Assembly: GCF_004010195.1 (NCBI RefSeq)
Contig: NC_057748.1
Span: forward strand, 6,271,653 to 6,335,652
Reading direction: 5' to 3'
DNA length: 64,000 nt
DNA from: Chiloscyllium plagiosum
Taxonomy: Eukaryota
This document shows, in pieces, positions 1,737 through 64,000 of this stretch. A program made the translations under genes and the position numbers. Numbering within the stretch: the first letter of the stretch is position 1; each line of letters opens with the position of its first letter. Under the pieces are notes generated by a model. It made no database searches, was not told the origin of the DNA, and was given only the letters and a program-made list of their open reading frames with translations.

Positions 1737-2377
1737 GGAGGTGATGGCCTAGTAGTATTTTCGCTGGGTCATCAATCCAGAGAACCAGGTAATGCTCTTC
1801 AGAAAACAAAAAGAGCTGGAGATCACAGCAAGTTAAACAGCGTCCATGGAGAGAGAGAGCAAGCTAACATTTCAAGTCTAGATGATTCTTCATTAGAGCT
1901 GGGTTCTTAGGAGCTGGGTTCAAATCCTGCCATGACAGGTGGTGGAACTTACATTACGAGCCAATGGTGACCATTAAACGATCATCAATTTTGGATGTAG
2001 ATTTGCTCGTTGAGCTGGAAGGTTAGTTTTCAGATGTTTCATCACCATATTAGCTAACATTTTCAGTGATCCTCCAGATGTGGCACTGATGGTGTAGCCC
2101 GCTTTCTATTTATGTGTTTGGGTTTCCTTGGGTTGGTGATGTCATTTCCTATGGTGATGTAATTTCCGGTTCTTTTTCTCAGAGGGTGGTCAATTATTCG
2201 GGAAGTCCCTTCTGTCTCACGAAAGGAACTGCTGTCCTTACCTTGTCTGACCTACCTGTGACTTCAGACCATAGCAATGTGGTTGATGCTTAACTGCCCT
2301 CTGGGCAATTAGGGATGGGCAATAAATGCTGGCCCAGCCAGTGACACACACAATGTGTGAATTAGTGAAAAAAAAAG
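1737..2377 (+). mobile_element. tRNA-derived SINE (family 2) interrupted by two Penelope-derived inserts (1801-1900, 1993-2188)
   Basis: A-box tggcctagtag, B-box ggttcaaatcc, body ccttacc..tctgacctacctgtgact..agacc.agcaatgtggttga, tail gggcaattagggatgggcaataaatgctggcc; further copies at about 27718-28065, 45235-45570, 47085-47815, 50770-51520, 53855-54195, 58690-59015, 62490-62780. Confidence 0.75.
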
Positions 2378-2414
2378 CAGGGTGGAGACTGATAATATAT
2401 CAGCTAAGTGAACC

Positions 2415-2728
2415 TCTGGGGTGAGGGACTCCAGAACTAGGGGGCTTAGGTTTAGGGTGAGAGGGGAAAGATATAAGAGGGATCTGATGGACAACTTTTT
2501 CACACAGAGGGTGTGCATGTATGGAATGAGCTGCCAGAGGAAATGGTGGAGGCTGGTACAATTACAGCATTTAAAAGACATCTGGATGGGTATATGAATA
2601 GGAAGGGTTTAGAGGGATATGGGCTGAATGCTGTCAAATGGGACTAGATTAGGTTAGGATATCTGGTCGGCATGGACGAGTTGGACCGAAGGGTCTTTTT
2701 TCCCTGCTGTACATCTCTATGATTCCAT
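2415..2728 (+). mobile_element. CR1/HER1 LINE 3' end
   Basis: RTRG..FRVRGERYKRDL..NFFTQRV..WNELPEEMVEAGT motif plus the conserved 3' tail ggaccgaagggtc...ctgtacatctctatga. Confidence 0.85.
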
Positions 2729-3747
2729 TTATGGAGCATCCCAGTGTGATGTGAATTTAACAGAGTGAATTGGATGAATTAAATGGACTTGATGGTTCTT
2801 GAGGTAGTTGCACTATTGAAGATGAGCCTAAGATTAATTGACTCTTGACCGATATCCAAATGATTTTGCTGGAAATTGCCGAGAGAGGTGTGTATCAGAT
2901 GGAAACAGGCCAGGAACCACTGTTCATGGGTCAAGTGATGTGTTGACATTCCCAGGAAAGGGTCATTATCAAAAACAGAACCTCGCATAAAAGTAGGAAG
3001 TGCAAGTTTGGAAAGTAGGGTTAATTACTACAATTAGGAAACAACTCTGTAAATGTCTTTAAGTTGAATCCAACAGCGGAAATTCTAATCCAGGATTTCA
3101 CAAAGTGAAACTTGGGGTCATAAGCTCACACGCTGCAATAGCCACTGCATAGCTCTTCCCCTTCACCTCTTTCAGGCCTTCTATCCTTCACCGCCTGCCA
3201 TCTGGTTTCCTCACACCTGCTCTACTTTCAGATCATTTCAAAGGCTCAAAATGGAGTCACACTACGAAAATGTTCAAGAAGCTCCAGACCAACCTGGAGA
3301 GAAGAGACTGCAGTTCATTGCACATTGAAAGGGTTGCACAGCAGAGTCAACATGGGATTGGATAAAAACTTGAATGGGAGGAATTACAGGACTATGGGGA
3401 AGAGTCAGGACATAAAGGTGTAACTAGATTGTATGGAGCTGCCACATGCATATGCAATGGGTCTCCTGGTGTGGGAAGTAATTCCATGAAATCTAAAACA
3501 AGACACATTTCAGATATGGCTATGGTGCAAACTCAACTTGATTTTAGGGCTCAAAACATTAGTGGTTAGTAACACTTGAATTGAAATACTGTTAACCAAA
3601 GCTTGGCTTATAATTTCACAACGTGTAAAAACCTGAACAATAAGGAGTAATAAGGAAGGCAGATAGAACACTGGCTTTTATTTCAAAGAGATTACAGTAT
3701 AATAGGGAAGTTTTGTTGAAACCATACAAGGTAATGGTCAGCACTAC

Positions 3748-7878: not shown

Positions 7879-8050
7879 GTTGAGGTTCTGGATGTAAGTT
7901 TGCTCGCTGAGCTGGAAAGTTCAGTTTCAGATGTTTCATCACCATGAAGTAACATCATCACCGGAGGCTCACTGGCTACGTTACCTGCTATGATGGCAAA
8001 ACGTCTGAAAATGAACCTTCCAGCTCAGCTAACAAACTTACACCCAGAAC
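7879..8050. mobile_element. Penelope-derived hairpin element, family C, degenerate hammerheads
   Basis: Inverted arms gttctggatgtaagtttgctcgctgagctggaa...ttccagctcagctaacaaacttacacccagaac; flanked by the 13 bp direct repeat actatttaaacag (7866-7878, 8049-8061). Confidence 0.75.
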
Positions 8051-9666: not shown

Positions 9667-9820
9667 GGGAGAAAGTGAGGACTGCAGATGCTGGAGATCA
9701 GAGTTGAGAGTGTGGTGCTGGAAAAGCACAGCAGGTCAGGCAGCATCCGAGGAGCAGGAGAATCAACATTTCGGGCATAAGCCCTTCATCCTGCTGTGCT
9801 TTTCCAGCGCCACACTTTGG
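9667..9820. mobile_element. Penelope-derived hairpin element, family A
   Basis: Head ggagaaagtgaggactgcagatgctggagatcagag with inverted arm; flanking near-direct repeat ccatctYcagtga (9654-9666, 9825-9837). Confidence 0.8.
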
Positions 9821-9899
9821 ACCACCATCTCCAGTGAACTCGCAATGAAATACTTACAGCTGATTAGGCTGGTGGGAATGCAATAATCTGTCAACAGGA

Positions 9900-11035
9900 T
9901 CGACACTACTTAGATCAGGGCAACTGGCTTGTTTGCTGCTCCTGCTACTGTTCAAAGTCCACTGCAACGCACCAAGCTTCCACCAACAGTATCTTCTCAA
10001 CACCATGACTTTACCAACATTAGGAATCAGAGCAATAACATCAGGGAAAACTATCGTGCCTTGGCTAGAAATTTTTCATCATCACTGGCTCAAATCCCTG
10101 AGCTTCCCAAATGTATAAACAATGTGGGAACACTCATCAGGTGGAGCAGGCCTATTGGTATTCCGACCGGTGATCTTGCCATTGACTCTTCTCATGGGGA
10201 TTTTGGTTTGATCCTTTGGTCAATTGACCAGATTTTAGTGCTTCACAGAAGCTTACGTTGTCAGCAGACACTTGAGACTTTTCTCCACAAGTGACGTAGC
10301 AGTCATTTTGAATGTCTCCCAGTTTATGCTGAAGGTGCTGCATGCTTACGGAAGGTGGTCTCTTTCTCCTGGCTGGCTGAGCCAATGCTGACCACCTTGT
10401 TGCTAGTAGATCTTGGTGTATCCCTGCCATTATCATGAAGCCAGCCCTTGATGCTCAGTCCCGTAGCCTCAGTGGAAGTATCCGGCTTTGATGAGTCCCA
10501 GGCTTTTGCGACAGTGGAATCAGCAGTGTGATCAGGATGGGAGAAAGTGAATAATGCAGATGCTGGAGATCAGAGTCGAAAAGTGTGTGGCGCTGGAAAA
10601 ACACAGCCGGTCAGGCAGCATCCGAGGAGCAGGAGAATTGACGTTTCGACTGTAAGCCCTTCATCAGGAAGCCTCATTCCTGATGAAGGGCTTATGTTCG
10701 AAATGTCGATTCACCTGCTCCTCTGATGCTGTCTGACCGGATGTGCTTTTCCAGCATTACATTCTTCAAGTGTGATCAGGGTATTCCAGCCTAGTCTGTG
10801 AGATTTGCTAGATTTATATCTCTGCACGATGTGTGTGCAGGTTTCTGATCTGAAATCCCTTTGGTGATTGTCGCTTGATTGATTCTTATGCTTCGGCTTG
10901 AAATGGAAGTTCAGTTGTGAGTGAACAAGCCAATAATCTGTGTGGTAGTCAGCACTGGGCAAGACTCAAGTACGCAGCACATCCCCTAGGTCATGCTGTA
11001 TTTGATCAGAGCAAGGATATCGCTAAGTGGTCACA
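9900..11035 (-). mobile_element. Degenerate RTE-like LINE fragment, interrupted by a family A element
   Basis: Remnant RT motifs on - (AKAWDS resembling KAFDS, LHDN, FIHLGS resembling FTYLGS) with many frameshifts. Confidence 0.45.
10539..10768. mobile_element. Penelope-derived hairpin element, family A, two oppositely oriented hammerhead cores
   Basis: ...cccttcatcaggaa gcctca ttcctgatgaaggg...; 12 bp TSD agtgtgatcagg (10525-10536, 10769-10780). Confidence 0.85.
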
Positions 11036-12435: not shown

Positions 12436-12710
12436 AGGAGAAAGTGAGGACTGCAGATGCTGGAGATCAGAGCTGAAAATGTGTTGCTGGAAAAGCGCAG
12501 CAGGTCAGGCAGCATCCAAGGAGCAGGAGAACCGACGTTTTGGTCATGAGCCCTTCCTCATTTAGAGGCTTGAAAGTTGTTGTGAACCCACTGTAAACAC
12601 TGTGAAGGTGTGGAGATGCAAGAGGAAACCTAGCTTGGCCGGAGTTGCGGGGGGTCCTGCTCCTTGGATGCTGCCTGACCTGCTGCGCTTTTCCAGCAAC
12701 ACATTTTCAA
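12436..12710. mobile_element. Penelope-derived hairpin element, family A, with captured internal DNA
   Basis: Inverted arms; 13 bp TSD cccccaaccctgg (12423-12435, 12711-12723). Confidence 0.8.
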
Positions 12711-20223: not shown

Positions 20224-20430
20224 AGGAGAAAGTGAGGACTGCAGATGCTGGAGTACCAGAGTTGAAAAATGTGGTGCTGGAAAAACACAGCAGGCCAGGC
20301 AGCATCCGAGGAGCAGGAGAATTGACGTTTCGGGCATAAGCCCGATTCCTGAAGAATGGCTTATGCCTGAAACGTCGATTCTCCTGCTCCTCGGATGTTG
20401 CCTGGCCTGCTGTGTTTTTCCAGCACCACA
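20224..20430. mobile_element. Penelope-derived hairpin element, family A
   Basis: Inverted arms of about 70 bp; hammerhead core CTGAAGA(20349)...GAAACGTC on +; perfect 15 bp TSD ttatacaaaacatag (20211-20225, 20431-20445). Confidence 0.85.
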
Positions 20431-20934
20431 TTATACAAAACATAGCACAGGTTAATAGTATTTTTCTTTCTGCCTCTCATGCTGAGCTTTAGGCTGCAAT
20501 TGAAAGCTTGCTTGATGATTGGTTACATTCACTTTGCGTCCAACACTGCATACTCATCCTTCCCATGATGCAGGCAGCAAGCTGGTGGACCTCTGTTTGT
20601 GTGTTTCAGAAACAGTGTCAATCAAATCTAGCCAGATGAACATTGTAAGTATGTGTTATAGCAAGGTATGCAACCTGGCAGCAGAGCATTAAATCTGAGC
20701 CTGATTCCACTTTCATCTTAATTTCACAAAATGTTTTAGTTGGCAGGAAGGGGTGTTAGGAAGTTGAAGTTAACGAATAAAGACTAGGTGGGAGTCCAGG
20801 TTCAATCTCCTTTCATCTCAGCCTACAGGTTCCAAGATCAACTGAAGTGACACTGCCACTGGGAAGCCTGAGATCAGCTTGCAGAGCAGACACAGCCCTG
20901 CACTCAGTCGATGGCTATCTTTTGGAGGTACTGT

Positions 20935-32154: not shown

Positions 32155-32365
32155 AGTTAAAAATCACACACCACCAGATTATAATCCAATAGATTTATTT
32201 GAAAGTTCAAGCTTTCGGAGCAGTGCTCCTTCGACAGGTAGTTACATAATGAAGGAACAGTGATCCGAAAGCTTGTACTTTCAAATAAACCTGTTGGACT
32301 ATAACTTGGTGTTGTCATTTTTAACTTTGTCCATCCAGGTCCAACCTCAGCACCTCTACACCATG
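32155..32365. mobile_element. Penelope-derived hairpin element, family D
   Basis: Inverted arms with degenerate hammerheads; short flanking repeat gagtcaaa. Confidence 0.75.
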
Positions 32366-36380: not shown

Positions 36381-39300
36381 AAAATTGTCTCTCAGGATGA
36401 TTGTAGAACAATGTATGACTCTGAATCACGTTAGAGCAGATGAATAAAAGCTTGATCATGGATCTCAAGATCTATAAGGAGGAGATTAAAACATGGAAAG
36501 GGAGAGGGAATGACTTCCAGAGTTTTGGAGTCCACTGGCAGCTGAATACTTAGCTCCCAGTGTAGGGCCAATTGTTGTTGGGAATTCAACGAGGCAAGAA
36601 ATAAAAGGGGGGTGTCTTGATTGGAGGTTTGTGGGGTTGAAGTGGATTACTGAAATAAGTTCTCTTGATTTCCAAAATATTTGATGGCTGGGATTTCATA
36701 GAATGACTACAGTGTAAAAAGAGTCCATTCAGTTCATTGAGTCTGCACCAATCCTCTGAAGAGCATCCCACTCATCCAATCCCTATAACTGTGCATTTCC
36801 CATGCCTAACCCATCTAATCTTTATATCTTTGGACTGCGTGAAGAAACCAGAGCACCTATCAGAAACAGGGAGAACATGCAAATGCCGCACAGTCACCTA
36901 AAGATGGAATCAAACCCAGGTCCCTGGTGCTGTGAAGCAGCAGCACGAACCACTAAGCCACCATGAGATTTATTACACTTCAGTAGTTTGGGATATCAGT
37001 AATTTCTAAGCGAGGCACTAAGAGAGGGGTTTAGGAAAAGAGAAGATAGAGTTTACAGGAGATAATGGCTGATCTCTGTAGCTCAAATTTCTATAATAAC
37101 ATAAATATAAGTGACCCATTTGGCCCTTCAAGTTGACTCCACCATTCAATAAAACATCTGAAACCCATGATTCCCTTAAGGCCTAAAGATGTATTAACCT
37201 CAGTCTTGGAATCAATATTAATGTTGATATATAACATAATTTTGATAAGGTATGCTGAACAGTTGGTTGTTCTGAAGCAGGATCCCTGACATGAGCCAGT
37301 TGTGTTGACTGCTGTGATTTTGTGTTGTGAGCTCAATTGTAAGGTAATTCCATGTGAAGGGGATGCAGAAGAGAGAAGTATTTGTGTTTGGGCTGAATTT
37401 ACAGAGTCAATAAGGGTACCAGGCACCAGATAAAAATGCCAAAGTTTTAAATCAAGATCTGAGGATGACATTAAAATCAACGTGAAACCTTAATGCTTTT
37501 TCTGTCTGCCGCCTGAACTGCTGAGTATTTTCTAGCCTTTTCTGATTTTGACATTAGATTTCCAGCATGTGATATAAAAGGAGTGTTACACCATCTGAAG
37601 TGCTGTCTTTTAGATAAGATATCAATTTGAGCTAGTAAACGACCCTCAGTACTGCTTCAAAGATGAGTATGAAGATTTCCCATCAATGGGTCAATGTTCA
37701 TTCCTCATGATCTACAACTGTTTTCCTAAGTAACAACATTGACTACACTTTACAAACCATCCTTTGGCTATGTAATGCTTTGAGTCTTGCTCTGAGCATT
37801 GGAAAGTCCTCTATAAACATATTTATTATTTCTTTCTTGCTATCATTCTATTTTTGTCATAGAGCCATTACAGCTTCCAAGGAGACCATTAGGCCCATTG
37901 CTCTCTGGATAGCAATCCAGCAAGTCACATGCCCCAGCTCTATTCCTGTAGCCAGGCAAATTTATTTCTCTCAAGTGCCCATCTAATTTACTCCTTAAAT
38001 TATCTCTGTTTCCAAAACCCTGATAAGCAGTGAATTCCAAGTCAATGCCACTCATAGTTCTTCCTTATATTCCCCCTGCATCTCTTGCCCACAATGTTAA
38101 AATATGCAACTTCTGATCTTTCAACCATCAGCTAAAGAAGAACAGCTTTTGTTCCATATTTGTCAATCCTTCCATAATAGCAGCAGGATTACCTTTTTCA
38201 TATTCTAGTTCAGTGGGACAGAGAGTGTCTCTTGATCAGGATTTCTCGTGATGGATTCTCTGAATGTCCCCTTCTTCCCACCAGCCATCTCTGTGTGGCT
38301 GTATTCTCTACCTTGGGAACCCAGTCTTATCTAAAACCATAAAAGAACTGCATATGCTGGAAATCTGAAACATGAACAAAATTTGCTGGAGAAACTCAGC
38401 AGCTCTCTGGAGAGAAAAACACATTTCGGGTCCAGTGTAACCTGAAGAAGTTCAATGTCAGTGGAACTGTACTGCAGGAAAGGGCCAGTAAGTTGGGGAA
38501 AGGGAATGAGGAATAAAATGGCCCTTGAACTAATGGCTTGCTAGGCTATTATGACAACCATTTTGCAGTGGATCTGGAAGCCAGATCAGGTAAGGCCGGC
38601 AGTGACCAGGGACCCAATGCTGTGGCCTAGTGTGGACTGTAGTGGTAGCAAGCGGTCAGACCACGTGGAGAACCCCCCTGTTCTGGTCTGCTGCTGTAAA
38701 GGGCCTTTGGAGAGAGACTGTGATGTTTGTCTTTTTAACTTTGCTTATTGCTTTTCTGACCTATGGTTATACTGTATATAGCTGTAATGTAATTATGGTT
38801 ATACTGTGTATAGCTGTAATGAAATTTTTCTTTCTTCACTTCTCTATTCTGCAATTAAGGATTGTACCTATGGAACCTTTGTACCTAAGATGGTGCGGTC
38901 AGTAGCGATGTATAAACCTTTCACTATACTCATGTGAGTACATGTGACAATAAAGCTAATTCAATTCGATTCATGTAAGGATGGTAAATGAACCAGATGG
39001 GTTTTTTTTAAAGAATCATAGCCACCAGTTCCACAATTAGCTTTGTATTTCAGAGTTTAAATCCCATGTTGTGGATTTGAACCCATGCCACCAAAGTATC
39101 AATCCAGCCCTGTGATATTCTAGTGCAGTGATACACCATCTTCTCCATTAGTGTGTACGGTATATCTCACTCTTTAAAGTTAAATGAATCAGCAAGCTGC
39201 CTCATTGGAAAAATGTGACATTGTGGATTTCATTATCCCCTTTGTTCCTGTGGTATAAACGGTTTGTGATGATTGGAAGTTTGGCATTCTTGCATTCCTT

Positions 39301-39605: not shown

Positions 39606-40926
39606 TGTTGTGCTTCGGTGTTGGGTTTTGATACAGGGAGAGGAGAGTTAGGGCAGGTCTGATCCTCTCCGGCCTCTTACTCCCTACAGTTCCTCAGCAA
39701 GGCTGGAGATCCATAGCTTTATATGTCTTTGAGAGGCAAATTCCTGAGGATCTCTTTGTAGGGAGGGGGAGGTGGTCAGTGAAGGTGAGGCCTTAAGTCT
39801 CATCTTTCTCAGCTTTCTCATCAAGGAAGATTCAAGCAGAAGGGTAGTGTCTCCCTAAGGCTAGATAGGGTAGAATCACAGAATCCCTGCAGTGTGGAAA
39901 CTGGCCATCTGGCCCATCAGGTCCACACTGACCCTCTGAAGAACATCCTTCCAGATCCACCCTCCTATTCCATCCCTGTATTTCCCATGGCTGACCCACT
40001 TGGCCTGCATGTCCCTGGACACTATGGGGCAATTTAACATGGCCAATCACCTAATATTTAGACTGTACTAGGAAATCAGACCAGTCAGAGGAAACCCACG
40101 CAGACATGGGGAGAACATACAAACTCCACATGCGCACAGTCATCTGAGGGTGAAATTGGACCTGGGGTCCTGGTGCTGTGAGGCAGCAGTGCTAACCACT
40201 GAGCCACCCTACAGTAATAGCACAAACGTTTCTGGCTACAGGTTTCTGAATGGGACTACAGGGTTTGCGGAGTTCTGAACAAGGGTCAGCAGACTCGAAA
40301 AATTAACACTGTTATCTCTCTCCATGGCAGCTGCCAGACCTGCGGCCTTTCTCAAGCAATTTCTCAGTTTTGTTTCAGATCTCCAGCAGCCGTGGTTTCT
40401 TGTCTTATTCTGGGATTGGCGGGGAGAATGGCATTATTTGGCGTGAGCCACATCTCAAGTCTTCCCTCGAGGCGCACCTCCAGCGACCTGAGCACAAAAA
40501 CGTGCTGAAACGCTGGCACCAGTAGCGAGGGAGCATTGCACTGTCAGTGGGGAGCGGGGGGGGGCTAACCTTTGGATGAAGAGGCCAAATGAAGACCCCC
40601 CCTCCCACCACAGCCTGCCCTCTCAAGCAGACATCAAAGATTTTTGATTTGATTCGATTTATTAATGTCACGTGTACCGAGGTACAGTGAAAAGTTTGGT
40701 TTTGTGGGCAGATCATACAATGCAAAGATCATAGGGTGATAGATCAGAGCGAGAAATATCAAATTGCAGCTGCAGAGACGGTGCACAAAAAGCAAGATCA
40801 ACATGAGATTTGAAATTTGAGAGGTCTGTTCGGCGGTCTAATAACAGCAAGGAAGAAGCTGTTCTTGAACCTCTGCCACCTCTTCAAAGGAAGGTCTCAC
40901 TCGTGCTCAGGTTCAATATTTATCCA

Positions 40927-41166
40927 GGGCGGAGGTGGGTACTGCAGATGCTGGAGATTAGAGTCAAGATTAGAGTGGTGCTGGAAAAGCACAGCAGATC
41001 AGGCAGCATCCGAGGAGCAGGAAAATCGACGTTTCAGGCAAAAGCCCTTCATCAGGAATCATGAGGATCATTCCTGATGAAGGGCTTTTGCTTGAAACAT
41101 CGATTTTCCTGATCCTCGGATGCTGCCTGACCTGCTGTGCTTTTTCAGTACCACTCTAATCTTGAC
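40927..41166. mobile_element. Penelope-derived hairpin element, family A, two hammerhead cores
   Basis: Inverted arms of about 95 bp; 15 bp TSD ttcaatatttatcca (40912-40926, 41167-41181). Confidence 0.85.
41024..41059 (-). ncRNA. Minimal type I hammerhead ribozyme motif (family A)
   Basis: uucCUGAUGA-a-GGGC uuuu GCCU-GAAA-c-GUC-ga: intact core, stem II, palindromic ACGU stem III, GUC cleavage triplet. Confidence 0.75.
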
Positions 41167-43243
41167 TTCAATATTTATCCATCTGCCAAGCATCACAGAA
41201 ACAAATTACTTGGGTCAGTACCTCTTTGTTTGTGTGATCTTGTGGACAGATCAGCTGCTGCTGTATCGCAGCAATGTTTCCACTTCAAATCGTCATCACC
41301 AGGTCAAAAATGTTTTTCTAACTCAACCCAAGGTGATGGAAGGCACCGATGCAAAAGCCAAATCTTTTTTCTTTTCATGTTTTTAGAAACAAAACGTTTG
41401 AACTGTGATTTATATATCATTTAAAATCCTATCTCTCATTAAATTTGAAAGTAAATTACAAGCCGGCAGATGGAAATGAGCTGCGTTCAATGTAAAAGTG
41501 ATGAGATATCTGACATTACTATTGCCATGACTCTAGGCCTCTGGGATTTCGATTCAAATTGGACTGGGGCAAAAATGTTGGACTGAGAATTGCATCTGTC
41601 TGAAGGGACTGTGCATGAAATGAATTAGTACAATGTCAACAACTTCAGCAGCAAGTCTCTTGTGACTTTGCCATCTTTTCCGCCGACCGTGACTATCTTT
41701 AATCCCGGGACTGACCAAAGGAAAAAAGAGAAGGAAAGTTTAAAGTTTGAGTGTCCCAATTCCCTGGTTCCACTTGCCACTGATTCATTTGTTCCACTAC
41801 TTTTTCTCTTGTGTGTTGTTGTTCTTGCATCCACCTATCCTCCATCACGGGTCACCAGGGAGACACTGAGTTCCAGGTGATGTCACCCTTGCTTGGAGTA
41901 TGAGGGAGAGGCTTAGCTGAGATATCTGTGGAGGTGGAAGGCATTCACTGTTGGAGTATAAGCCTCCAAATATTACATTGGGGAGCAGGCTTCCTGGACA
42001 CAGTGATTCCTTAACCCCACAGGGGTTAGTCACGGCTGCATTGATGAAAGTTCACGCTTTCTCGGGTCGAAACAGAAAGAAACATTGGAGAAGCTGATTC
42101 CCTTAGAGTGTTTGGGAGGAGATTCGATCGAGGCGTGCAAGATTGCTGTAAGCTAGATGAAGAAAAGCTTGTTCTCACCACAAGGACTGGAGACACAGGT
42201 TTGAAACTTTGAGTGTGCGTGTGAGAGGCAGAGGGCAATAGGGTGGAGACGAGTGGAAGATTTGTTCTACACAGGAGTGCTATTGACCCTGGAACCCATG
42301 AGGCTGGTGGAAGCTGAGGTGATAAAAATGAGAGGGATGTGCAGGGAAGGGAATTGATAGGATTGGGGAGTCCGGGAGGGGGAAATGGGTTTGAGCTGAT
42401 TGTTCGACGGAGAGCTGGGAAAGGCCTCTTCTGCTGGAGTTATTACTCTGATGGGTTAGGTAGGCTTTTTGCAGTGATAAACAGAGTTAACCCATTGGGT
42501 TGATGACCTTCCATCAAAACCCATGTGCGCGAGAATTATTTTGGAATGGCAGCAGAATTGGGGAGCTTTAGTTCCACGGAGGGACTGAAGAAACTGGGCT
42601 TGTTGCCCTTAGGGGCAGAAGTGGGGAAAAGGAGATTTAACAGAGGTGTTCAAAATTTTGAGAGGCTTCGGTCGGGCAAGTGAGGGGAAACTGTTTCCAT
42701 TAACAGGAGAGTCATTAACCAGGTTTCACAAATACAAGGTCATTGGCAAAAAATGGAAGATGAGGAGAAAGTTATTTACAACTTGGTGAGGGAAACAGAT
42801 GCTGGAAAATCAGAGTCGATAAAGTGTGGCGCTGGAAAAAGCAAAGCAAGTCAAAGCAGCAGTTTCGAAGTTTGGATGGGACCCTTCATCAGGACTCCTG
42901 ATACCCGAAACATCGACTCTCCTGCTCCTCTGATGCTGTTTGGTCAGCTATGCCTTTTCCAGCTCCACATTTTATCAAAGTTTATTTACATTCAGGAAGG
43001 CTGTCTCTAAGGGGTAGTGGAAGCAGATTCACCAGGGACTTTCAAATGACTTGAATAAGTATTTGGAAAGCAGATAAATGCAAGACTATGAGAAAGGAGC
43101 TGAGGATTGGGGCTCTATCAAAGAGCTATCACAGGCGCAGTGGGCTGAATGGCCTTAAATGTTTCATGTTGGTATAGGGGAGTGATTAACAGTGAAGTAG
43201 TGGAAATGCTACTGAACTGAGCTATTAATCCTGAGATCAACTA

Positions 43244-43712
43244 GGAGAAAGTGAGGACTGCAGATGCTGGAGACCAGAGTTGAAAAGTGTGGTGCCTGAG
43301 ATAAGGTGGGGGCAGGGGAAATGAGGAAGCTAGAGAAATCTACATTCATCCATGTGGTTGGAGGGTTCCTAGGTGGAAGATGAGGCGCTCTTCCTCCAGG
43401 CGTCGTGTGGCCAGGGTCTGGCGTTGGAGGAGGTCAAGGATCTGCATTTTCTTGGCGGAGTGGGAGGGAGAGTTAAAGTGTTCAGCCATGGGGCGGTTAT
43501 CTCTCCGGCCTATCGCCCTCACCCTCACCTCCTTCCACCCATCGTATTCCCAGCACCCCTCCCCCAAATTCCCTCCCCCCTACCTTTTATCTCAGCCTGC
43601 TTGGCACACCAACCTCTTTCCTGAAGAAGGGCTTATGCCCGAAACATCGATTTTCCTACTCCTCGAATGCTGCCTGGCCTGCTGTGTTTTTCCAGCACCA
43701 CACTTTTCAACC
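43244..43712. mobile_element. Penelope-like element fragment: family A arms plus GIY-YIG endonuclease C-terminus
   Basis: Minus-strand PMAEHFNSPSHSAKKMQILDLLQRQTLATRRLEEERLIFHLGTLQPHG (about 43346-43495); hammerhead CTGAAGAaGGGCttatGCCCGAAAcATC at 43621-43648. Confidence 0.85.
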
Positions 43713-45575: not shown

Positions 45576-45784
45576 TCGAGGAGAAAGTGAGGTCTGCAGA
45601 TGATGGAGATCAAAGTTGAAACTTTATTGCTGGAACAGCACAGCAGGTCAGGCAGCATCCAGGGAACAGGAGATTCGACGTTTCGGGCACAGGCCTGAAG
45701 AAGGGCCTGTGCCCGAAACGTCGAATCTCCTGTTCCCTGCATGCTGCCTGACCTGCTGTGCTGTTCCAGCAATAAAGTTTCAAC
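45576..45784. mobile_element. Young Penelope-derived hairpin element, family A, intact + strand hammerhead core
   Basis: Arms of about 80 bp with one visible mismatch; CTGAAGAaGGGCctgtGCCCGAAAcGTC at 45695-45722; 13 bp TSD tctccccaattct (45563-45575, 45785-45797). Confidence 0.88.
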
Positions 45785-46240: not shown

Positions 46241-46513
46241 GGGAGAAGTGGGTACTGCAGATGCTGGAGATCAGAGTCAAGTTTAGAGCGGTGCTGGAAA
46301 AGCACAGCAGGTCAGGCAGCATCCGAGGAGCAGAAGAATCAACATTTTGGGCAAAAGCCGTTCATCCTGATGAGTCCCAGGTGATGTTCTGGGAACTTGG
46401 TTTGGATCCTGCCATGGCAGATGGTGGAATTTGAATTAAATAAAAATCTGGAATTAAGGGTCTAACAATGACCGTGAAACCATTGCCGTTCCAGCACTGC
46501 TCTAATCTTGACT
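46241..46513. mobile_element. Penelope-derived hairpin element, family A, with a captured 117 bp local segment
   Basis: Family A arms; flanking repeat ctaatattct..gg; centre 46372-46488 matches 47109-47225. Confidence 0.8.
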
Positions 46514-53698: not shown

Positions 53699-54474
53699 TA
53701 TTATGCTAACTGTTACCATGGAGAGTGGCTAGTGTAATATTTAGTCAGGTCTGAGCTGCGAATGCTGTGTGACACCCCTCCACCGCCTGTTTTCTTCAAT
53801 TTGTTCCTCAACACGCAGTAGAGTGTCCTCTTGTCTCTGATGCGGAAGGTTTCTTTTCCATTCATGGGATGAGGGAGGGCATTGCTGGGTAGGCCAACAT
53901 TTGTTGCCCATCCCTAATTGCCCAGAGAGCAGTCACATTGCTGTGGGTCTGGAGTCACATGTAGACCAGGTAAGGGCTGCAGTTTCCTTCCCTGACGGAC
54001 ATTAGTGACCCAGATGAGTTTTATCCCAACAATGGATTCACAGTCATCATCAAACTCTTAAATCCCAGATTTCCTAATTTTATTGAATTCAAATTCGACA
54101 TTCTGCCCATGGTAGGATTTGAACCCGGGACCCCACGTCATTACCTGGGGTCTCTGGATTAACAGACCAGCGATAATCCCACTAGAACATTGCTTCCGTG
54201 AAAGGATTGTGAGTTCAAGTCTCACTCCAGTGACCTAAGAACAAAGGTCAAGGCTGACAATGCCAGGGTGTGCTGCACTACTGCAGGTGCTGACATTTAG
54301 ATGAGAAAATCAGTGGAGGTCTTCCGAGATGGACATTCAAAAAATTATTTTGCGCTATTTCAGAGGAGAACACCAAAAAAACAAATGAGGGTTTTATTTC
54401 ATTGAGGGAACTTGCTTTGTTCAAATTGGTTCCCGCGCTTCCTATGTTATGACATGATTTGGAGGTTGGACTGT

Positions 54475-54890
54475 AAAAATCACACAACACCAGGTTATAG
54501 CCCGACAGGTTTATTTGGAAGCACGAGCTTTCGGAGCGCTGCTCCTTCATCAGGTGGTTGTGGAGATAAGATTGTAACACACAGTTTATAATAAAAGTTT
54601 ACAGTGTGATGTAACTGAAATTATACATTGAACAAGACCTGGGTTGTTTGTTAAGTCTCTCATGTTTTAGAATGGCCATATTGGTTTCAGTTCTTTCATA
54701 TGTAAATCGCAAAATTTTTTTTTAAAAGTTGCATTCTCAAGTGAACTTTAACAATTGGTGTCATGTTGGCCCAGATAGTGCATTGAAGGTGTGAGGTGCC
54801 CTGTGTGAGACTGTCTGTGCCACAACGTTCAGACTGATTCTAATCTTAAAAAAAATTTACAGAATCTTACATGGATTCATGCAGTTTTTT
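54475..54890 (-). mobile_element. Penelope-derived element, family D, single long arm
   Basis: aaaaatcacacaacaccaggttatag...; matches the arms at 30058 and 32155. Confidence 0.75.
54520..54556 (-). ncRNA. Minimal type I hammerhead ribozyme motif (family D), fully intact
   Basis: cac-CUGAUGA-a-GGAGC agc GCUCC-GAAA-g-CUC-gug: stem I cac/gug, 5 bp stem II, palindromic AGCU stem III, CUC cleavage triplet. Confidence 0.8.
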
Positions 54891-55521
54891 CTTAGATTAG
54901 ATTAGATTACTTACAGTGTGGAAACAGGCCCTTCGGCCCAACAAAGTCCACACCGATCCGCCGAAGCGCAACCCACCCATACCCCTACATTTACCCCTTA
55001 CCTAACTCTACGGGCAATTTAGCATGGCCAATTCACCTGACCTGCACATCTTTGGACTGTGGGAGGAAACCGGAGGGGGTGTGTGCATGTGGGTGTGTGT
55101 GGAGGGGGGGGGAGGGGCGAGGCTATGAGTGTCTGTGATAGAGTGTGTGTACGTATGAGTATGAGCGTAAAGGGGTTTAAGTCTGTGAGAGGGTGTGTGT
55201 GGGAGTGTGTGTGAGCGCGTGAGACAGAGTGAGTGTGTGTGTCTGTAGGAGACTCTGTGTGTGTGTGTGTGTGTCTGTGTGTATCTTTAGTGAACAGAAA
55301 ACATGGATTAGGTGCAGTACAGGTCTCTAGCGTCAGTCAGTAAGGTCCTGGCTGATCTGCTTACTCCACATTCCTGCCCGTGCCTGATAATCTGTCACCC
55401 ATTACGATAGCGTCTGCACTTTCAAAGAACCTTGTTGGCTACAAAGCACTTTGGTGCACCCTGTGTTTGGGAAAGATGCTAATTAAATGCAAAATCAAAA
55501 CCGAAAGAACGGACGGTGTAA

Positions 55522-55710
55522 ATCAGAAACAAAAGCAGAAATTGCTGGAAAAACTCAGCAGGTCTGGCAGCATCTGTGGAGAAAAATCAGAGTTGATGTT
55601 TCGGGTCCAGTGAGGAAGAGTCACTGGACCTGAAACGTTAACTCTAATGTCTCTCCACAGGTGCTGCCAGACCTGCTGAGCTTTTCCAGCAATTTCTGCT
55701 TTTGTTGTTG
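55522..55710. mobile_element. Penelope-derived hairpin element, family B
   Basis: Arms aaagcagaaattgctggaaaaactcagcaggtctggcagca...; remnant core TGAGGAagagtcactggacctGAAAcGTTaact; partial copies at about 1801-1900, 37480-37570, 38338-38450, 40270-40400. Confidence 0.75.
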
Positions 55711-57240
55711 TTTCTGTATGAATGCAGTCTTTCATCCCTGACTTGTAGTAACTTGCTGCAGACACAAGATGGTGCAGGACACCCATCCATCTGGTTCAAA
55801 GTGGCTGGAAACATATTGGCCCTGTAAATTGTTCCCCCAGATTCTAACCTCAAAGCTTATTTTAATTTTCAGAGGTAACAGCTGGTCAACCCTGACACCG
55901 TAAATCTTCTGCTTTTAACCAACAAAGTGGGGAATAAAATCAACAAAGAATTGATACTGGCAAATGACGGTGAATCTACTTAAAGGCTGCATCTGAGTGG
56001 GATTAGGTCTCACATCAATCTCCATTCATTGCATCCTGCATGTGCCCAGTTCAATGGTTGTACAAACAATATTTAAAAGCTTTCCCCCTCCCCTACCGTT
56101 TAGCCCACTGTTTTCATCTCCTCCCCTGGGCTTCATCTGACAGATTATTTCCAACCTGCTCCCTCCCTCCCCTGAGCTTCGAGTTACACACTTACTGACC
56201 CGTGCTTGGTTTCACCAATATGTGGTGTTAAGAAATTAAATATCACGCGAAGGATGTCCATTGAAAGCCTGGGCTGTCTGTCTTCTGCTTGTTTTCTGCC
56301 TCTTCTGCTCACAATGGGGACTGTGTAATGAACTCCTGAATCTCCAATTGTAACTTGACCTGCAACATTTTCTACCCACTGTCTCTAATGTAGTCTGTAC
56401 TACATTAGACTGTAGTCACAATCAATTGGACTGTGGTCACGGTTGTAAGCATTTGAAAGGCTTAATAGAGTCATAACACGTGGAAACAGACCCTTTGGTC
56501 CAACCAGTCCACGTCGACCACATTCCCAAACTAAACTCGTCCCACTTGCCTTCATATCCCTTCAAACCTTTCCTACACATATACTTATCCAAATGTCATT
56601 TAAACGCTATAATTCATCAGTTTCTCTGGCAGTTTGTTTTACACATGAACCAATCTGTGTAAAAAAAAATGTAGTCCCTCATGTCCTTTTTAAATCTTTT
56701 TCCTTTTCGCCTTTGTAATAAGCCCCTTAGTTTTGAACTCCCCCAACCGAGGAAAAGGACCATTGTTGTTCACCTTGTTATGCCCCTTGTAATTTTATAA
56801 GAGCCTTAAACATTACCTATAACGATGCTATATTGGGCAGCACAGTGGCTCAGTGGTTAGCACTGTTGCCTCAAGCGCTGGGGTTAGATTCCATCCTCGG
56901 GCAACTGTTTGTGCAGAGTTTGCACATTCTCCCCATGTCTATGACAGTTTCCTCCAGGTGCTCTGGTTTTCTCCCACAGTCCAAAGTTGGGTAGGTTAAA
57001 TGGATTTGCCATGCTAAATTGCCCCCAGTGTTCAGGGATGTGTAAGCTAGGAGGATTAGCTATGGGGAATGTGGAGAAAGGGTGAGTTAGTGCAGACTCA
57101 ATGGGCTGAATGGCCTCTTTCTGCACTGTAGGGATTCTATGATATGTAGATGTTTGGGATGAACCACAAAAGACTTAGACTTACTATCAAGTCCACCTCA
57201 TGTACTCTATAACAATATTTTTAATATCATTTTAACTTGT

Positions 57241-57452
57241 GGATGTAGGTTTGCTCTCCGAGTTGGAAGGTTCGTTTTCAGATGTTTCATCACCATGCTA
57301 GGTAATATCATCAGTGAGCCTCCCGTGAAGCTTCATTTGGAGGCTCACTGAAGATATTACTTAGCATGGTGACTAAACGTCTGAAAACGAACCTTCCAGC
57401 TCAGCGAGCAAACCTACATCCAGAACCTCAACAAATCTTCTCAAAACTCGCT
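57241..57452. mobile_element. Penelope-derived hairpin element, family C, hammerhead core on - (57277-57318)
   Basis: uca-CUGAUGA-u-AUUACC uagcau GGUGAU-GAAA-c-AUC-uga; flanking repeat attKtaacttgt (57229-57240, 57454-57465). Confidence 0.8.
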
Positions 57453-58574
57453 AATTGTAACTTGTACCTAATTGCCAATTTGCAATAAACTTCAAGTTTT
57501 TTAAGATATGGGCCTCTTCTCTTTTAACCAACAAGTGACTTTTTTTCTCCTATACCAGACCAGTAGGTTGTATTCTACCCTATCCTAAAAGAAGATGGTG
57601 TCAGCAATATTGCCCCACAGAACAATAGTGTGGACAGACTCTTACAACACAGTGGTAAGTGGTGAGAGGATTACTCATCAAAATGTGTAGCCCAACATAC
57701 ACCTTCAACACTCACTCTTTCCACCGCCGGCAGCAATGTGTACCATCTACAAGATGCAATTCACCAAGGCTCCTTTGACAGCACCTTCCAAACCCACAAC
57801 AATTACCATCTAGAAGGACAGGCAGATACATAAGAACGTCACCCTCTGCAATTTTCCCTCCAAGCCACTCACCATCCTGACTTGGAAATATATCACCATT
57901 CCTTCAGTGCCACTGGGTCAAAATCCTGGATCTCCATCCCTAACGGCATCCCTAACACCAAATGCAAGAAGGCAGCACACCACTATCTCTCCCAGGACAA
58001 TTGGCAATGGTTAATAAATGCTGGCAGTGGTGCCCATTTCCCATGAACGGATGTAAAACAGCCTGCCTTGGTCTGTCTCCTTGTACGTGCCAAGAATGGA
58101 ATGTTGCCATTCAGTGCCTGACCTGGTTGGTACTTACTGTAAATCTCAAGCAACAATGATAGATAAGAGCAGGTTGGGGGATCAAACCGAGGATTTTCTG
58201 CTCTGCACGCCTCAGTTGATCTCCTTTCTATGCTTGAGGTGGAAAGGCAGAATCATCAGCACAGATCCAGTAACTCCCCGTGGATCGCAGCCTGTGGCTT
58301 TTGACAGAATCTCTCTCTTTCAATTAAACCTTCATCCAGCTTTCTCACACTCAATGATGCACCACAGTCAAACTCTCCCGCCAACTTGATCACTCTATTG
58401 AGTGTAGATGAGGTTAACTCTGTAATGCCCTCTGAAATGCCTTCTAGATGGTAATTGATTCAAGAGGCAATTCAGGACCGGCAACAACTGATGGCTTTGC
58501 CAATGAAAGAAAAAAAACGATTCTCTCACTGTACCAATTCTTAAAGTTTGCCTGATTTCATTTTTGCTACTTCT

Positions 58575-60196: not shown

Positions 60197-63010
60197 NNNN
60201 NNNNNNNNNNNNNNNNNNNNNNNNNNNNNNNNNNNNNNNNNNNNNNNNNNNNNNNNNNNNNNNNNNNNNNNNNNNNNNNNNNNNNNNNNNNNNNNNNNNN
60301 NNNNNNNNNNNNNNNNNNNNNNNNNNNNNNNNNNNNNNNNNNNNNNNNNNNNNNNNNNNNNNNNNNNNNNNNNNNGTTTCTGAATTGTATGCGTCAGTCT
60401 CGCACACAATCAAAGGATTGGGGGAAGGATTTTACTTTGCAAGTCCGCTGCTTTGGTGTTAAATCCCGAGGGGGGTGGCGTCTGCTCTCGTGTTGGTCCT
60501 CAGGTGGTGTACACTGTTCCCGGCTGTGCAACTGTCAGACACCAGTCGTTAATTAGTGGAAGATGATGCATGCTGTTCCTGCCCTCCATACAGCGGGCTG
60601 CAGGCACATTCCTATAACAGGATGCCAAAGAGGGGGTGGTCAGGTCGACAAGGAAAGGATAGAGTGTCAGAGAAAGGCAACATGCACAGTAATTGTAATT
60701 TAGAGGGAGAGACAGAAGGAAGAGAGGGAAAGGGAAGGGCGCAAGGCAAAAAGAGAGAAAGGCCAGTGGGAGTAGAAGAGAGTTAATGACAGACACAGAA
60801 AGCAGAAATGGTGGACGAGAGGCTGAGAAAGGGAAGAGAGAGAGACACACACACAAAGCAAAATAGAAACACAATTCAGGAAAGGGAGTAGACAAACCAA
60901 CCAATGACTTAGAAACTGTAAAAAGCAGAAAAAAATACAGGGAAGAGAGCAAAAAGAAGTGAACGTAAAGGAAAGGAGAGGTTAGACTAGGTTAGATTTA
61001 GATTGATAGGGTGAATGACAGGTGTCTTTTCCCAACATTGCGGGAATTTAAAGACCAAAAGGCATATTTTTAAGGTGAGAGGAGAAAGATTTAAAAAGGG
61101 GCAATTTTTTTACGCAGTCGTTCACGTGAGGAATGCACTTCCAAAGCAAGTGGAGGATGCAGGTACAGTTATAATGATTAAATGACACTTGGGTAAGTAC
61201 ATGGATAGGAAAGGTTTAGAGGGATATGGGCCAGGAGCAGGCAGGTGCGACTAGTTTAGTTTGGGATTATGGTTGGCATGGACTGGTTGGGCGGAAGGGT
61301 CTGTTACTGTGCTGTATGACTCTGTGCACCGAGATACAGTGAAAAGTATTGTTTTGCATGCCATTTGCAAAGAGCTGCCACTATGTGCTGCCTTCTGGAA
61401 TACCTGATACTTGGGTGGCTCAGTGGTTAGTACTGCTGCTTCACGGGACCCAGGTTCAATTCCAGCCTGGGGTGACTGACTTTGTGGAGTTTGCACATTC
61501 TCCCTGTGTCTGCGTGGGTTTGCTCTGGTTTCCTCCCACAATCTAAAGACCTGCAGGTCAGATGAATTGGCCATGCTAAATTTCCCATAGCGGTAGGTGC
61601 ATTAGTCAGGGGAAAATGGGTCTGGGTGGCTTACTCTTCGGCGGGTCGGTGTGGACTTGTTGGGGTGAAGCGCCTGTTTCCACACTGTAGGGAATCTAAT
61701 CTATACCTGATGATAACACTGCAATAGTTTGGTATTGTTTTTGTTCAGAGTACTCAGTTGCTGTCCATCCATTGTTACAACTCCTGACCACCCACTCAGT
61801 GGTGAATCCCTGTTCTCACCCTCCACTGGTGCTGCTGGACTGGCCTCAACTGAACCCTGTATGGAAAGGGACCTGATACCCATCCTTCTCCTGGGAAGGG
61901 GCGGACAGTCTGGCCGTGACTATCGCCACCTCTGTGCCAGTCTTCGTCCCCGCCCGCCAGCCCAAAGCGTTCGGCCATGGCCACTCGGTGCCGACAGGTG
62001 GTCGGAAAGATCCAGAAACATAGAGAAAGATGGCAGGTGGAAAATGAGAGAAATTGAAAGTAAAGGTATACTAAGAATGCCTGGGAGAGGCGCGGCCCAG
62101 TGGTCTTATCGCTGAACTGTAAATTCAGAGACCCAGATTGAAGCAGGGAGGTTGGTTCCACTTGTGGGCGAACGAGGGGGCATGGCCTCAGAGTAAGGGG
62201 GAGCAGGTTTTGGACTGAGCTCAGAAGGAACTTCTTCACCCAAAGGATTGTGAATCTGTGGAATTCCCTGCCCAGTGAAGCAATAGGGCCTACCTCATTG
62301 AATGTTTTTAGGGCAAAGACAGATAGATTTTTGAACAGGAAAGAAATTAAGGGTCATGGTGAGCAGTTGAATAAATGGAGCTGAGTCCACAAGAAGATCA
62401 GCTATGATCTTATTGAATGGCAGAGCAGGCACAACCAGCTAAATGGCCTATTCCTGCTCTTATTTCTTATGTTTTTATGGTCTTATGACTAGGTAATGTT
62501 CTGGGGACCCAGGTTCAAATCCTGTAATGGCAGATGGTCGAGTTTGAATTCAATAAAAGTCTGGAGTTAGGAGTCTAATGATAACCATGAACCTATTGCC
62601 AATTGTTGAGCAAATCCATTGGTTCACTTTAGAGATGGGAAACTGCTGTCCTTGCCTGGTTTGGTCCCCATGTGACTCCAGGCCCACAGCGATGTGGTTG
62701 ACTCTTCACTGCTCTCTGGGCAATTAGGCATGGGCAATAAATGCTGCCTAGCCAGCGATGCCTTCATCACATGAATGGATAACAAAAACGATTGAGGAAC
62801 CAACAGAGAGACTGAAAATGCAACGATAAAGGAATGAATGATGGTAAGAAGGAGAAACAAAAGGAATTGTTATAGGGAGAATACACAGGGGGAGAATGAG
62901 GGAGGCTGGAGAGACATTAATTCCTACACTGCAGCATCAACTTTGAGTCATGTCTGAGGTAACTGTGGAGCCCTTCTGTCTCTTGCTGTCTGCTGTCATG
63001 TTTCCCTGAG

Positions 63011-63263
63011 CTAAAGTATCCAGGAGTGTAGGATCTGACAAAAATAGACCACAATCACTCTGTTATTAAGTTGAGACCTTGAAGTCCCAATGGCTCTGAG
63101 TTTTGCATTTATTCTTTCCATATAGATGGGATGTCTCATACACATCTTGTTGATATCATCCCAGTTAAAATTCAGGTGTTCACTCATTAGTGGTTTATAA
63201 TTCACACTATTTCTGAACAGAGAGCTTAAGAGGTTCATTAATGACATTTGGGAAGGGAGAAAT
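63011..63263 (-). other. Candidate coding exon of an unrecognised minus-strand gene
   Basis: Strong acceptor ttttcatttcccttcctttcctacag followed by 83 open codons in non-repeat AT-rich DNA; protein not recognised. Confidence 0.3.
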
Positions 63264-64000
63264 CTGTAGGAAAGGAAGGGAAATGAAAAATATTCCTCAC
63301 GTAAACAAAGAGATAAACCTCCAGGCATAACAAACCTGTGGTATTTTGATAAACTAACCTTTCCACCTGCCATTTTGCTGTATAGAGTCATAGAGAAGTA
63401 CAGCATGGAAACAGACCCTTCAGTCCTGAGGAAGGGTTATACTCAAAATGTTGACTTCTCCATCTCTGACGTGCCTGACTCACTGTGTTCTACCAGCCTC
63501 CTGTTTGTCTCCTCCAGTCCAACTCGTCCATGCTTACCAGATATTCTAAATTAATCTAGCCTCGTTTGCCTGTGATTGGCCTATATCCCTGTACAGCTTT
63601 CCTATTCATGATTTTTAAATATTGCAATTGTACCTGCATCTACCACTTTATCTGGAAGCTCATTCCATACACACACGATCCTCTGTGTGAAAAAGTTGCC
63701 CCTCAGGTCCCTTTTATATCTTTCCCCTCTCATCTTAAACCTATGTCCTCTACGTTGTCATTCCAATCCGTACTTTCAAAAATGAATAAAACAGTTCTTT
63801 GATTTGACCTGTGCATCACTGGAAAGACTAGCATTCATTGGCCCTTAAACTGCTAGTGCCATTTCAGAGGGCAGCTACGAGTTAACTGTGGGTCTGGAAT
63901 CACCTGTAGACCAGGTGGGGCAAGAATGGTGGATTTCCACACCTCCCAAGGGAAATGGTGAACAGGATGTGTTTTTGCAACAATCAATGAACAGTTGGCA

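What the first reader, a model, noticed from the sequence alone, without database searches (positions are those of the whole stretch)
1801..63510. Four families of short hairpin retroelements carrying minimal hammerhead ribozymes
Seen: about 20 elements, mostly 150-300 bp, built from inverted arms, in four sequence families. A: 9667, 10539, 12436, 20224, 40927, 42790, 43244, 45576, 46241. B: 1801, 55522 and others. C: 1993, 7879, 57241. D: 30020, 32155, 54475. The arms differ between families, yet each converges on CUGANGA-N-stem II-GAAA-N-NUH. The stems covary: stem II is GGGC/GCCC (A), AUUACC/GGUGAU (C) or GGAGC/GCUCC (D); stem III is the palindrome ACGU or AGCU; stem I is uca/uga or cac/gug. 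Established: Penelope-like elements (PLEs) carry minimal type I hammerheads in their pseudo-LTRs, thought to cleave as dimers through a palindromic stem III. Inference: this genome holds a very dense population (about one per 3 kb here) of ORF-less, ribozyme-bearing PLE hairpins that would easily be mislabelled as MITEs. They are either abortive insertion products or a non-autonomous mobile RNA system.
Basis: partly seen in the sequence, partly recalled or inferred. Interest (0 to 1): 0.8.

Follow-up and report, generated by a model that had tools for sequence, protein, structure and literature searches.

The report
Aborted Penelope retrotransposon insertions, shark genome
These short hairpins are stumps left when known jumping genes (Penelope-like retrotransposons) began inserting into a shark genome and stopped early; they carry a decayed self-cutting RNA motif already known from this class, and the one odd feature is that most stop at the same place.

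Summary
There are 21 insertions (14 hairpins, 7 single arms), one per 3 kb, and each family carries a minimal type I hammerhead.

They are not a non-autonomous hairpin family or MITEs. They are independent, 5'-truncated insertions of Penelope-like elements (PLEs), reduced to the 3' end of the pseudo-LTR and joined head to head:
- All nine family A copies have 13-15 bp target duplications and a ~35-40 nt tail on one arm.
- They have no terminal inverted repeats, and no two central junctions are the same.
- One copy holds a Neptune-type GIY-YIG endonuclease fragment (76% identical to a bamboo-shark PLE protein).
- Two hold fillers copied from DNA beside the insertion site, so they were assembled in place.

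The ribozymes are mostly decayed, and a transcript of a hairpin buries them in duplex. Inverted pseudo-LTRs, tails and opposite-strand hammerhead pairs are published.

Not found in my searches: 25 of 34 inner arm ends fall within 12 nt of the start of the hammerhead core, not at its cleavage site. This may mark an RNA 5' end or a strong stop.

The parts
9667..9824 (.). Family A head-to-head insertion; tail arm on left (-), 27-nt right arm; TSD 9654-9666 / 9825-9837
10539..10768 (.). Family A hairpin; hammerhead cores at 10667 (-) and 10680 (+); TSD 10525-10538 / 10769-10782
12436..12710 (.). Family A hairpin, arms 100% identical over 55 nt; TSD 12423-12435 / 12711-12723
12559..12589 (-). Filler inside 12436: inverted copy (30/31) of right flank 12724-12754, which starts at the first base after the right TSD
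20225..20431 (.). Family A hairpin; TSD 20211-20225 / 20431-20445 (ends overlap the insert by microhomology)
40927..41166 (.). Family A hairpin (subfamily shared with 46241); cores 41055 (-) and 41074 (+); 15-bp TSD 40912-40926 / 41167-41181
42785..42978 (.). Old, diverged family A hairpin; degenerate 13-14 bp TSD with perfect core 42772-42780 / 42982-42990
43237..43712 (.). Family A insertion with long centre: tail arm plus ORF end (-) joined head to head to a 215-nt pLTR piece (+, 43498-43712); TSD 43224-43236 / 43713-43725
43349..43498 (-). 50-codon C-terminal fragment of a Neptune-type PLE GIY-YIG endonuclease (continues ~17 codons after a frameshift)
45576..45784 (.). Family A hairpin of a distinct subfamily, arms 98.8% identical; core 45695 (+); TSD 45563-45575 / 45785-45797
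46243..46513 (.). Family A insertion, tail arm plus 30-nt right arm; TSD about 46230-46244 / 46514-46528
46372..46488 (+). Filler inside 46241: 116/117 identical to 47109-47225, about 600 bp downstream; other copies of this repeat match at most 92%
55491..55706 (.). Family B hairpin (arms homologous to A); tail on left arm; no clear TSD
38333..38447 (-). B-like single arm with tail, lacking the 5' half of the core
40270..40405 (+). B-like single arm with tail; core at 40275 (11/12)
37456..37570 (+). Old B-like single arm, weakly supported; core at 37459
1803..1901 (-). Single arm of a further variant, inserted in a host repeat; core at 1896 (11/12), stem I 4 bp
63421..63505 (+). Single arm of a further variant inside a SINE-like repeat; core at 63426 (11/12), stem I 4 bp; possible 10-bp TSD
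1989..2192 (-). Family C single arm extending 126 nt upstream of the core; upstream frame open for 42 codons up to the TGA of the core; no protein match found
7879..8048 (.). Family C hairpin; 13-bp TSD 7866-7878 / 8049-8061
57237..57461 (.). Family C hairpin; cores 57314 (-) and 57348 (+); tail on right arm, frame open through the tail
30019..30640 (.). Family D hairpin split at its centre by a later SINE-like insertion (about 30201-30523)
32154..32366 (.). Family D hairpin; tail on right arm; possible TSD (8-nt perfect core)
54462..54890 (-). Family D single arm with ~337 nt of presumed upstream pLTR; core at 54553 is the only site with all helices and core intact

Best explanation
Each element is an independent, heavily 5'-truncated insertion of an autonomous Penelope-like retrotransposon, built at the target site. 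Family A is Neptune-type. The GIY-YIG endonuclease nicks both strands 13-15 nt apart (TSDs shown; 3'-overhang geometry inferred from 12436). Both 3' ends prime reverse transcription on the same pLTR region of the element RNA, one from the tail end and one from a site ~35-40 nt inside it (two outer-end classes shown; twin priming inferred from published in vitro work). Both cDNAs stop after ~30-140 nt, mostly just after copying the hammerhead. The two stumps are joined head to head by microhomology or gap filling, sometimes with a patch copied from neighbouring DNA (shown in 2 of 9 A copies). The hammerhead is a passenger from the parent pLTR. It did not define the ends, and it is unlikely to fold in a hairpin transcript. 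A fold-back route, in which one cDNA self-primes the second arm, gives nearly the same product and is not excluded.
For: TSDs: local-alignment scores of 11-15 for 10 of 21 insertions (all 9 A and C7879), against a maximum of 10 in 3000 random pairs. Ends: the tail is on one arm only; A outer ends fall at +111 to +137 (tail arm) and +82 to +100 (other arm) from core C3; C and D show the same two classes. Termini share only 1-8 of 15 positions in 12 of 12 two-armed inserts tested, so there are no TIRs. Parent: 43349-43498 is 76% and 69% identical to two Chiloscyllium punctatum proteins that have weak GIY-YIG and RT Pfam hits; P0002 has the CX2-5CxxC linker that marks Neptune/Nematis (PMC8557442 passage). 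The read-through C-terminus of a Stegostoma PLE protein (P0091) best matches translated family A hammerheads: the top 7 of 127,900 windows, about 390 nt after the endonuclease end. Independence: all 9 A junctions differ; the two arms of a copy are sisters in 3 of 6 two-armed copies in the tree (supports 96/87, 100/99, 94/95) and there is no left/right split; local fillers occur in 12436 and 46241. Literature: inverted pLTR with tail and TSD (PMC3846280); both-strand nicking and extension, two RT start sites bounding the tail, hammerhead cleavage not needed (PMC11167929).
Against: No parent ORF was found for B, C or D, and 11 of 21 insertions have no TSD above the null. In 3 of 6 two-armed copies the tree does not pair the arms. 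Arm similarity within a copy could also come from later gene conversion. The Pfam hits of the parent proteins are below the curated cut-offs. Plain random truncation does not predict the clustering of inner ends. Only one 64-kb window was seen, so shared junctions elsewhere in the genome are not excluded.
Confidence: 0.8

Rival explanations
1. The hairpins are non-autonomous, ribozyme-processed retroelements (hairpin masters or retrozyme-like RNAs) copied as units by PLE proteins in trans.
For: High density and a near-uniform size of ~160-240 bp for hairpins without fillers. Ends cluster. Trans-mobilisation by pLTR alone is reported in a rotifer. Short non-autonomous Penelope elements are mentioned for butterflies, and tandem retrozymes derive from pLTRs.
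Against: No shared junction among 9 A copies. No arm-specific fixed differences. Site-specific fillers. No tandem arrays of arms among 7 TRF rows. Only 1 of 34 inner ends lies near the cleavage site. The hammerhead is buried in a duplex of about -180 kcal/mol in the 2 hairpins folded.
Confidence: 0.08
2. Longer inverted PLE insertions were trimmed from the centre after integration because long palindromes are unstable.
For: Some arms run further upstream (-76, -123, -126, -337). The instability of long palindromes is from my own knowledge.
Against: Three single-arm copies with no palindrome (1801, 40275, 63424) also end at about -5 (placed by eye). Trimming gives no reason to stop at the hammerhead in unrelated families.
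Confidence: 0.08
3. They are MITEs of a DNA transposon with a chance hammerhead-like motif.
For: Short palindromic shape; Rfam returns only miRNA-like hairpin matches and no hammerhead.
Against: No TIRs at the termini, a one-sided tail, variable 13-15 bp TSDs, an endonuclease fragment of a retroelement, and a motif above chance with stems that differ between families.
Confidence: 0.02

Closest known systems
Neptune-clade EN+ Penelope-like elements (Arkhipova 2006, recalled; features as summarised in PMC8557442)
   Same: C-terminal GIY-YIG endonuclease (fragment in 43244), CX2-5CxxC linker in the nearest full proteins, hammerhead in pLTR, inverted 5'-truncated copy, 30-40 bp tail on one end, TSD.
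   Different: Most inserts here are reduced to ~100-130 nt of pLTR end per arm with no ORF body. TSDs are 13-15 bp against 8-10 bp in the rotifer examples read.
Minimal hammerheads of metazoan PLEs (Cervera and de la Pena 2014, PMC4209133)
   Same: Type I core, extra nucleotide before stem II, palindromic 4-nt stem III, many families per genome, mostly lone truncated copies; pairs 100-700 bp apart on opposite strands were reported in Schistosoma.
   Different: Sharks are not mentioned in the parts read. Intact-motif density here (1-4 per 63 kb) would exceed the ~4,000 (coelacanth) and ~9,000 (Xenopus) per genome reported, if this window is typical, which is untested.
Poseidon from Anolis carolinensis (PAc; Frangieh 2024, PMC11167929)
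   Same: Two adjacent RT start sites give tail and tail-less ends; both strands are nicked and extended; uncleaved RNA is the template. Family C geometry is close: ATG at the start of stem II in 2 of 5 arms, cut site 28 nt after it (PAc 26), tail end ~109 nt after it (PAc 111-118).
   Different: No sequence link of C to a Poseidon protein was found. The parts of the paper read do not describe inner-end clustering or pLTR-only hairpins.
Non-LTR retrozymes (Li 2026, bioRxiv 10.64898/2026.07.22.740005)
   Same: pLTR-derived, type I hammerhead, ORF-less, present in a chondrichthyan.
   Different: Retrozymes are head-to-tail tandems with two same-strand ribozymes. These are head-to-head, dispersed, TSD-bounded and have one ribozyme per strand.

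Membership tests
EN+ Penelope-like element (truncated insertion) | GIY-YIG endonuclease / RT ORF linked to the repeat | tested here: met
   Family A only: fragment inside TSD-bounded 43244, 76% to P0001; P0091 links ORF end to an A-like hammerhead.
EN+ Penelope-like element (truncated insertion) | ORF link for families B, C, D | tested here: inconclusive
   No hit for the C upstream frame; tblastn of 204 proteins found PLE ORF sequence only at 43.3-43.5 kb. B is linked only through arm homology to A.
EN+ Penelope-like element (truncated insertion) | Inverted 5'-truncated pLTR copy, head to head | tested here: met
   14 of 21 insertions.
EN+ Penelope-like element (truncated insertion) | 30-40 bp tail on one end only | tested here: met
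   A (9 of 9), B55522, C57241, D30039, D32155; C7879 has only a partial tail.
EN+ Penelope-like element (truncated insertion) | Variable-length target-site duplication | tested here: met
   10 of 21 above the null maximum; the other 11 are not above it.
Neptune clade | CX2-5CxxC linker before the endonuclease; RT phylogeny | tested here: inconclusive
   Motif seen in P0002 and in 117 of 120 related proteins by a loose pattern, not in the window itself. The motif is shared with Nematis. No RT tree was built.
Minimal type I hammerhead of PLEs | Conserved core, stem II, palindromic stem III, stem I | tested here: met
   At family level; most single copies are decayed (10 of 26 keep all core nucleotides).
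Minimal type I hammerhead of PLEs | Match to an Rfam hammerhead model | tested here: not met
   No hammerhead family at E<=5. This lowers 'member of an Rfam family', not the descriptor-based call.
Minimal type I hammerhead of PLEs | Self-cleavage as a dimer or with protein help | not testable with these tools
   Needs an in vitro assay.
Non-LTR retrozyme | Head-to-tail tandem units with two or more same-strand hammerheads | tested here: not met
   No such array.
Non-autonomous family copied as a unit | Shared internal junction and fixed arm asymmetries | tested here: not met
   Nine different junctions; 1 of 76 columns differs between left and right arms. Window only.
MITE / DNA transposon | Terminal inverted repeats abutting a fixed-length TSD | tested here: not met
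   Termini match at 1-8 of 15 positions in 12 of 12 inserts; TSD 13-15 bp, variable.

The most novel reading that the evidence does not exclude
The hairpins are paired 'strong-stop' cDNAs of PLEs. The element RNA begins (transcription start or processed 5' end) at the 5' edge of the hammerhead. RT starts internally ~100-130 nt downstream at the tail sites and runs off that end. It must then jump to the 3' pLTR to copy the ORF. A successful jump would create the pseudo-LTR and partial tandem, whose origin is unexplained. Failure on both nicked strands would leave these hairpins. Shark genomes would then hold a very large record of a missing step in PLE transposition, and the hammerhead would mark the RNA start rather than cut the template.
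Probability: 0.3. Interest if true: 0.65.

Novelty: new member of a known kind. Interest (0 to 1): 0.4.

Why it matters
As a class this is known biology: PLE pseudo-LTR stumps with minimal hammerheads. It matters for annotation, because about 7% of this window is PLE-derived palindromes that hairpin-based tools can read as MITEs or miRNA precursors; Rfam did offer mir-642-like matches below threshold. It matters more for mechanism. PLE integration is poorly understood, and these copies record the cut stagger (13-15 nt), two priming sites, local template jumps and a shared stopping point. All of these could be counted genome-wide and tested with the existing in vitro PLE system.

Tried and rejected
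- Rfam scan: no hammerhead match; miRNA matches are below gathering scores and reflect the palindromes.
- Protein and atlas searches with the family C upstream frame found nothing, so its reading as an ORF end is unproven; a 42-codon open frame can arise by chance.
- Pfam found nothing on the four window peptides, including the 50-aa endonuclease fragment, which was identified only through homologues.
- tblastn with 204 fetched proteins found no other PLE ORF piece in the window.
- The hammerhead table had an off-by-one offset (it reported 0 of 26 intact) and was redone (10 of 26). The end-clustering part does not depend on that offset.
- Ribozyme cleavage as the source of inner ends: rejected (1 of 34 ends near the site).
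- Tandem or retrozyme arrangement: rejected.
- A 3' splice site at the hammerhead's 5' edge, as in D. virilis Penelope, was considered as the cause of clustering. An AG sits there in some arm types but not in most family A arms, and stem I pairing alone can explain it. Left open.
- An initiator-like TCATTC just before the core in family A was noted by eye (consensus recalled); too short to count.
- The Lunse et al. dimer-cleavage paper was not held; I saw it only as cited in a review.
- The prokaryotic genome collection was not scanned, as it is irrelevant here. No eukaryotic genome, Repbase or Dfam library was available, and viral and metagenome contigs were not searched.


Full report
HOST AND SETTING. 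The window is AT-leaning eukaryotic DNA, about one third repetitive by self-BLAST (21.9 kb). It has LINE endonuclease remains and two exons of a TIP49/RuvB-like gene on the minus strand, near 18.7 kb and 13.2 kb. The only two homologues of its PLE fragment are from Chiloscyllium punctatum, and the nearest named relatives are mostly sharks and rays, so the host is inferred to be a shark. Penelope-like elements are already reported as expanded in whale shark introns (10.1101/443036, passages).

OBSERVATION. All listed coordinates hold an element. I count 21 insertions, 14 with two inverted arms and 7 with one, covering 7.3% of non-N bases, one per 3.0 kb. A strict minimal-hammerhead descriptor gives 4 hits, all in arms, against 0.04 per shuffle (25 shuffles). 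With one mismatch there are 11 hits, of which 8 are in arms, against 1.04. Shuffles do not correct for copies being related, but the three hits with stem I of 3 bp or more come from three different arm types. Stems II, III and I differ between families yet pair. Single copies are decayed: 10 of 26 arms keep all 12 core bases. Rfam gave no hammerhead match. A and B arms are homologous, and 'B' contains several variants.

ANATOMY. Read in ribozyme sense, each arm is hammerhead plus 50-75 nt, with or without a ~35-40 nt tail. The 3' ends point outwards and the truncated 5' ends meet in the middle. All nine A copies and C7879 have 13-15 bp target duplications scoring 11-15, above the maximum of 10 in 3000 random pairs; the other 11 insertions do not exceed the null. 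The termini are not inverted repeats of each other in 12 of 12 inserts tested. This is the published PLE layout: inverted pLTR, optional tail, TSD, head-to-head junction (PMC3846280, passages; PMC8557442, passages; PMC8969392, passages).

PARENT. The centre of 43244 encodes 50 residues that are 76% identical to the C-terminus of an RT plus GIY-YIG protein; 84 representatives matched at E<=0.001. P0002 carries the CX2-5CxxC linker that separates Neptune/Nematis from Penelope/Poseidon. A Stegostoma relative (P0091) whose gene model reads past the ORF ends in a peptide whose seven best matches among 127,900 window positions are family A hammerheads, about 390 nt after the endonuclease. So family A is the 3' pLTR end of a Neptune-type PLE. 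For C, the geometry resembles Anolis Poseidon: ATG at stem II in 2 of 5 arms, cut site 28 nt and tail end ~109 nt downstream, frame open through the tail. No protein link was found for C. D and the B variants rest on anatomy alone.

INDEPENDENT ASSEMBLY. They share outer ends but no inner junction (9 of 9 differ). In four young copies the two arms are more alike than arms of different copies (100, 98.8, 96, 93%). In a 15-arm tree the two arms are sisters in 3 of 6 two-armed copies, and only 1 of 76 columns has different majority bases in left and right arms (three short right or left arms, 9667R, 46241R and 43244L, were left out). Gene conversion could mimic the sister pairing but not the next point. 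Copy 46241 contains 117 nt that are 116/117 identical to DNA 600 bp downstream. Copy 12436 contains an inverted copy of its own right flank, ending at the first base beyond the TSD. Both hairpins were therefore completed at their own sites. The second filler suggests the top-strand nick lies at the 3' end of the duplicated target (inference). A further 65 nt in 12436 has no source in the window.

THE RIBOZYME. Cleavage is predicted at +28 (A), +34 (C) and +29 (D) from core C3. Only 1 of 34 inner ends is near there, so the templates were uncleaved. This agrees with in vitro work in which ribozyme mutants still insert and cleavage needs the protein (PMC11167929, main text read). In both hairpins folded, the motif is buried in a duplex of about -180 kcal/mol, and the two ribozymes are on opposite strands, so they cannot dimerise in cis. 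Opposite-strand pairs 100-700 bp apart and low dimer activity are already in PMC4209133 (parts 1-2 of 4 read).

THE UNEXPLAINED REGULARITY. Of 34 inner ends from 20 of the 21 insertions (37459 could not be placed), 25 lie within 12 nt of core C3, across A, B-like, C and D. Taking one arm per insertion gives 16 of 20, with P about 4e-7 under a generous 100-nt uniform null. Caveats: about ten ends were placed or adjusted by eye. Single arms were partly found through the motif, which biases towards ends that include it. For family A, where BLAST would have found pieces of ~30 nt, the count is 13 of 18 arms and 8 of 9 tail arms. Candidate causes are an RNA 5' end there (strong stop), an RT block just upstream, a splice junction as in D. 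virilis (intron 46 nt after the start, PMC2377424, abstract and passages; intron end at helix I), or fold-back at short local palindromes as proposed in PMC3846280. I cannot separate these. A few arms run past the point (-27 to -337), so the stop is not absolute.

LITERATURE COVERAGE. Ten searches found no paper on shark PLE hammerheads, on pLTR-only hairpins at this density, or on end clustering at the ribozyme. The library lacks most subscription papers, and Repbase and Dfam could not be checked. Also seen: the 2026 retrozyme preprint (parts 1 and 3 of 5 and passages; supplements not seen, one chondrichthyan sampled), and passages of PMC6155905, PMC6765202, PMC5753468, PMC7561263 and PMC6685494.

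VERDICT. These are real, dense, mostly decayed PLE insertion stumps of a known kind, not a new mobile ribozyme system. Interest is moderate, 0.4, and rests on the mechanistic footprints, above all the shared stopping point.

Noticed in passing
window 13038-13478 (-) and 18610-18990 (-): Exons of a TIP49/RuvB-like gene (Pfam TIP49_C and TIP49). Nearby hairpins such as 12436 and 20224 are probably intronic and would form dsRNA in the pre-mRNA; the gene was not fully mapped.
   Followed up: partly
window 47810-48442 (+): 210-codon Ser/Thr/Pro-rich open frame with a signal-peptide-like start, possibly a mucin-like exon; no Pfam match.
   Followed up: partly
window 58575-59235 and 59490-60196: Near-identical ~660-bp blocks about 961 bp apart, each next to an N gap; likely an assembly duplication.
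   Followed up: no
window 14938-15933: LINE RT fragment with an inverted 360-bp duplicate (90% identity), resembling a 5' inversion.
   Followed up: no
window 12590-12654: 65-nt filler in element 12436 with no source in the window.
   Followed up: partly
window 1736-1990, 46200-46560, 63380-63560, 30201-30523: Nested repeats: elements 1801, 46241 and 63424 sit inside older host repeats, and a SINE-like copy sits in the centre of D30039, giving relative ages.
   Followed up: partly
window 43290-43300 (-): In 43244 the sequence just after the ORF end is fused directly to the last ~55 nt of the pLTR, skipping roughly 400 nt: either a template jump or a later deletion.
   Followed up: partly
proteins P0009, P0049, P0090, P0097: Database gene models in which PLE ORF pieces are fused to apparent host proteins; probably annotation chimeras caused by PLE abundance.
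   Followed up: no
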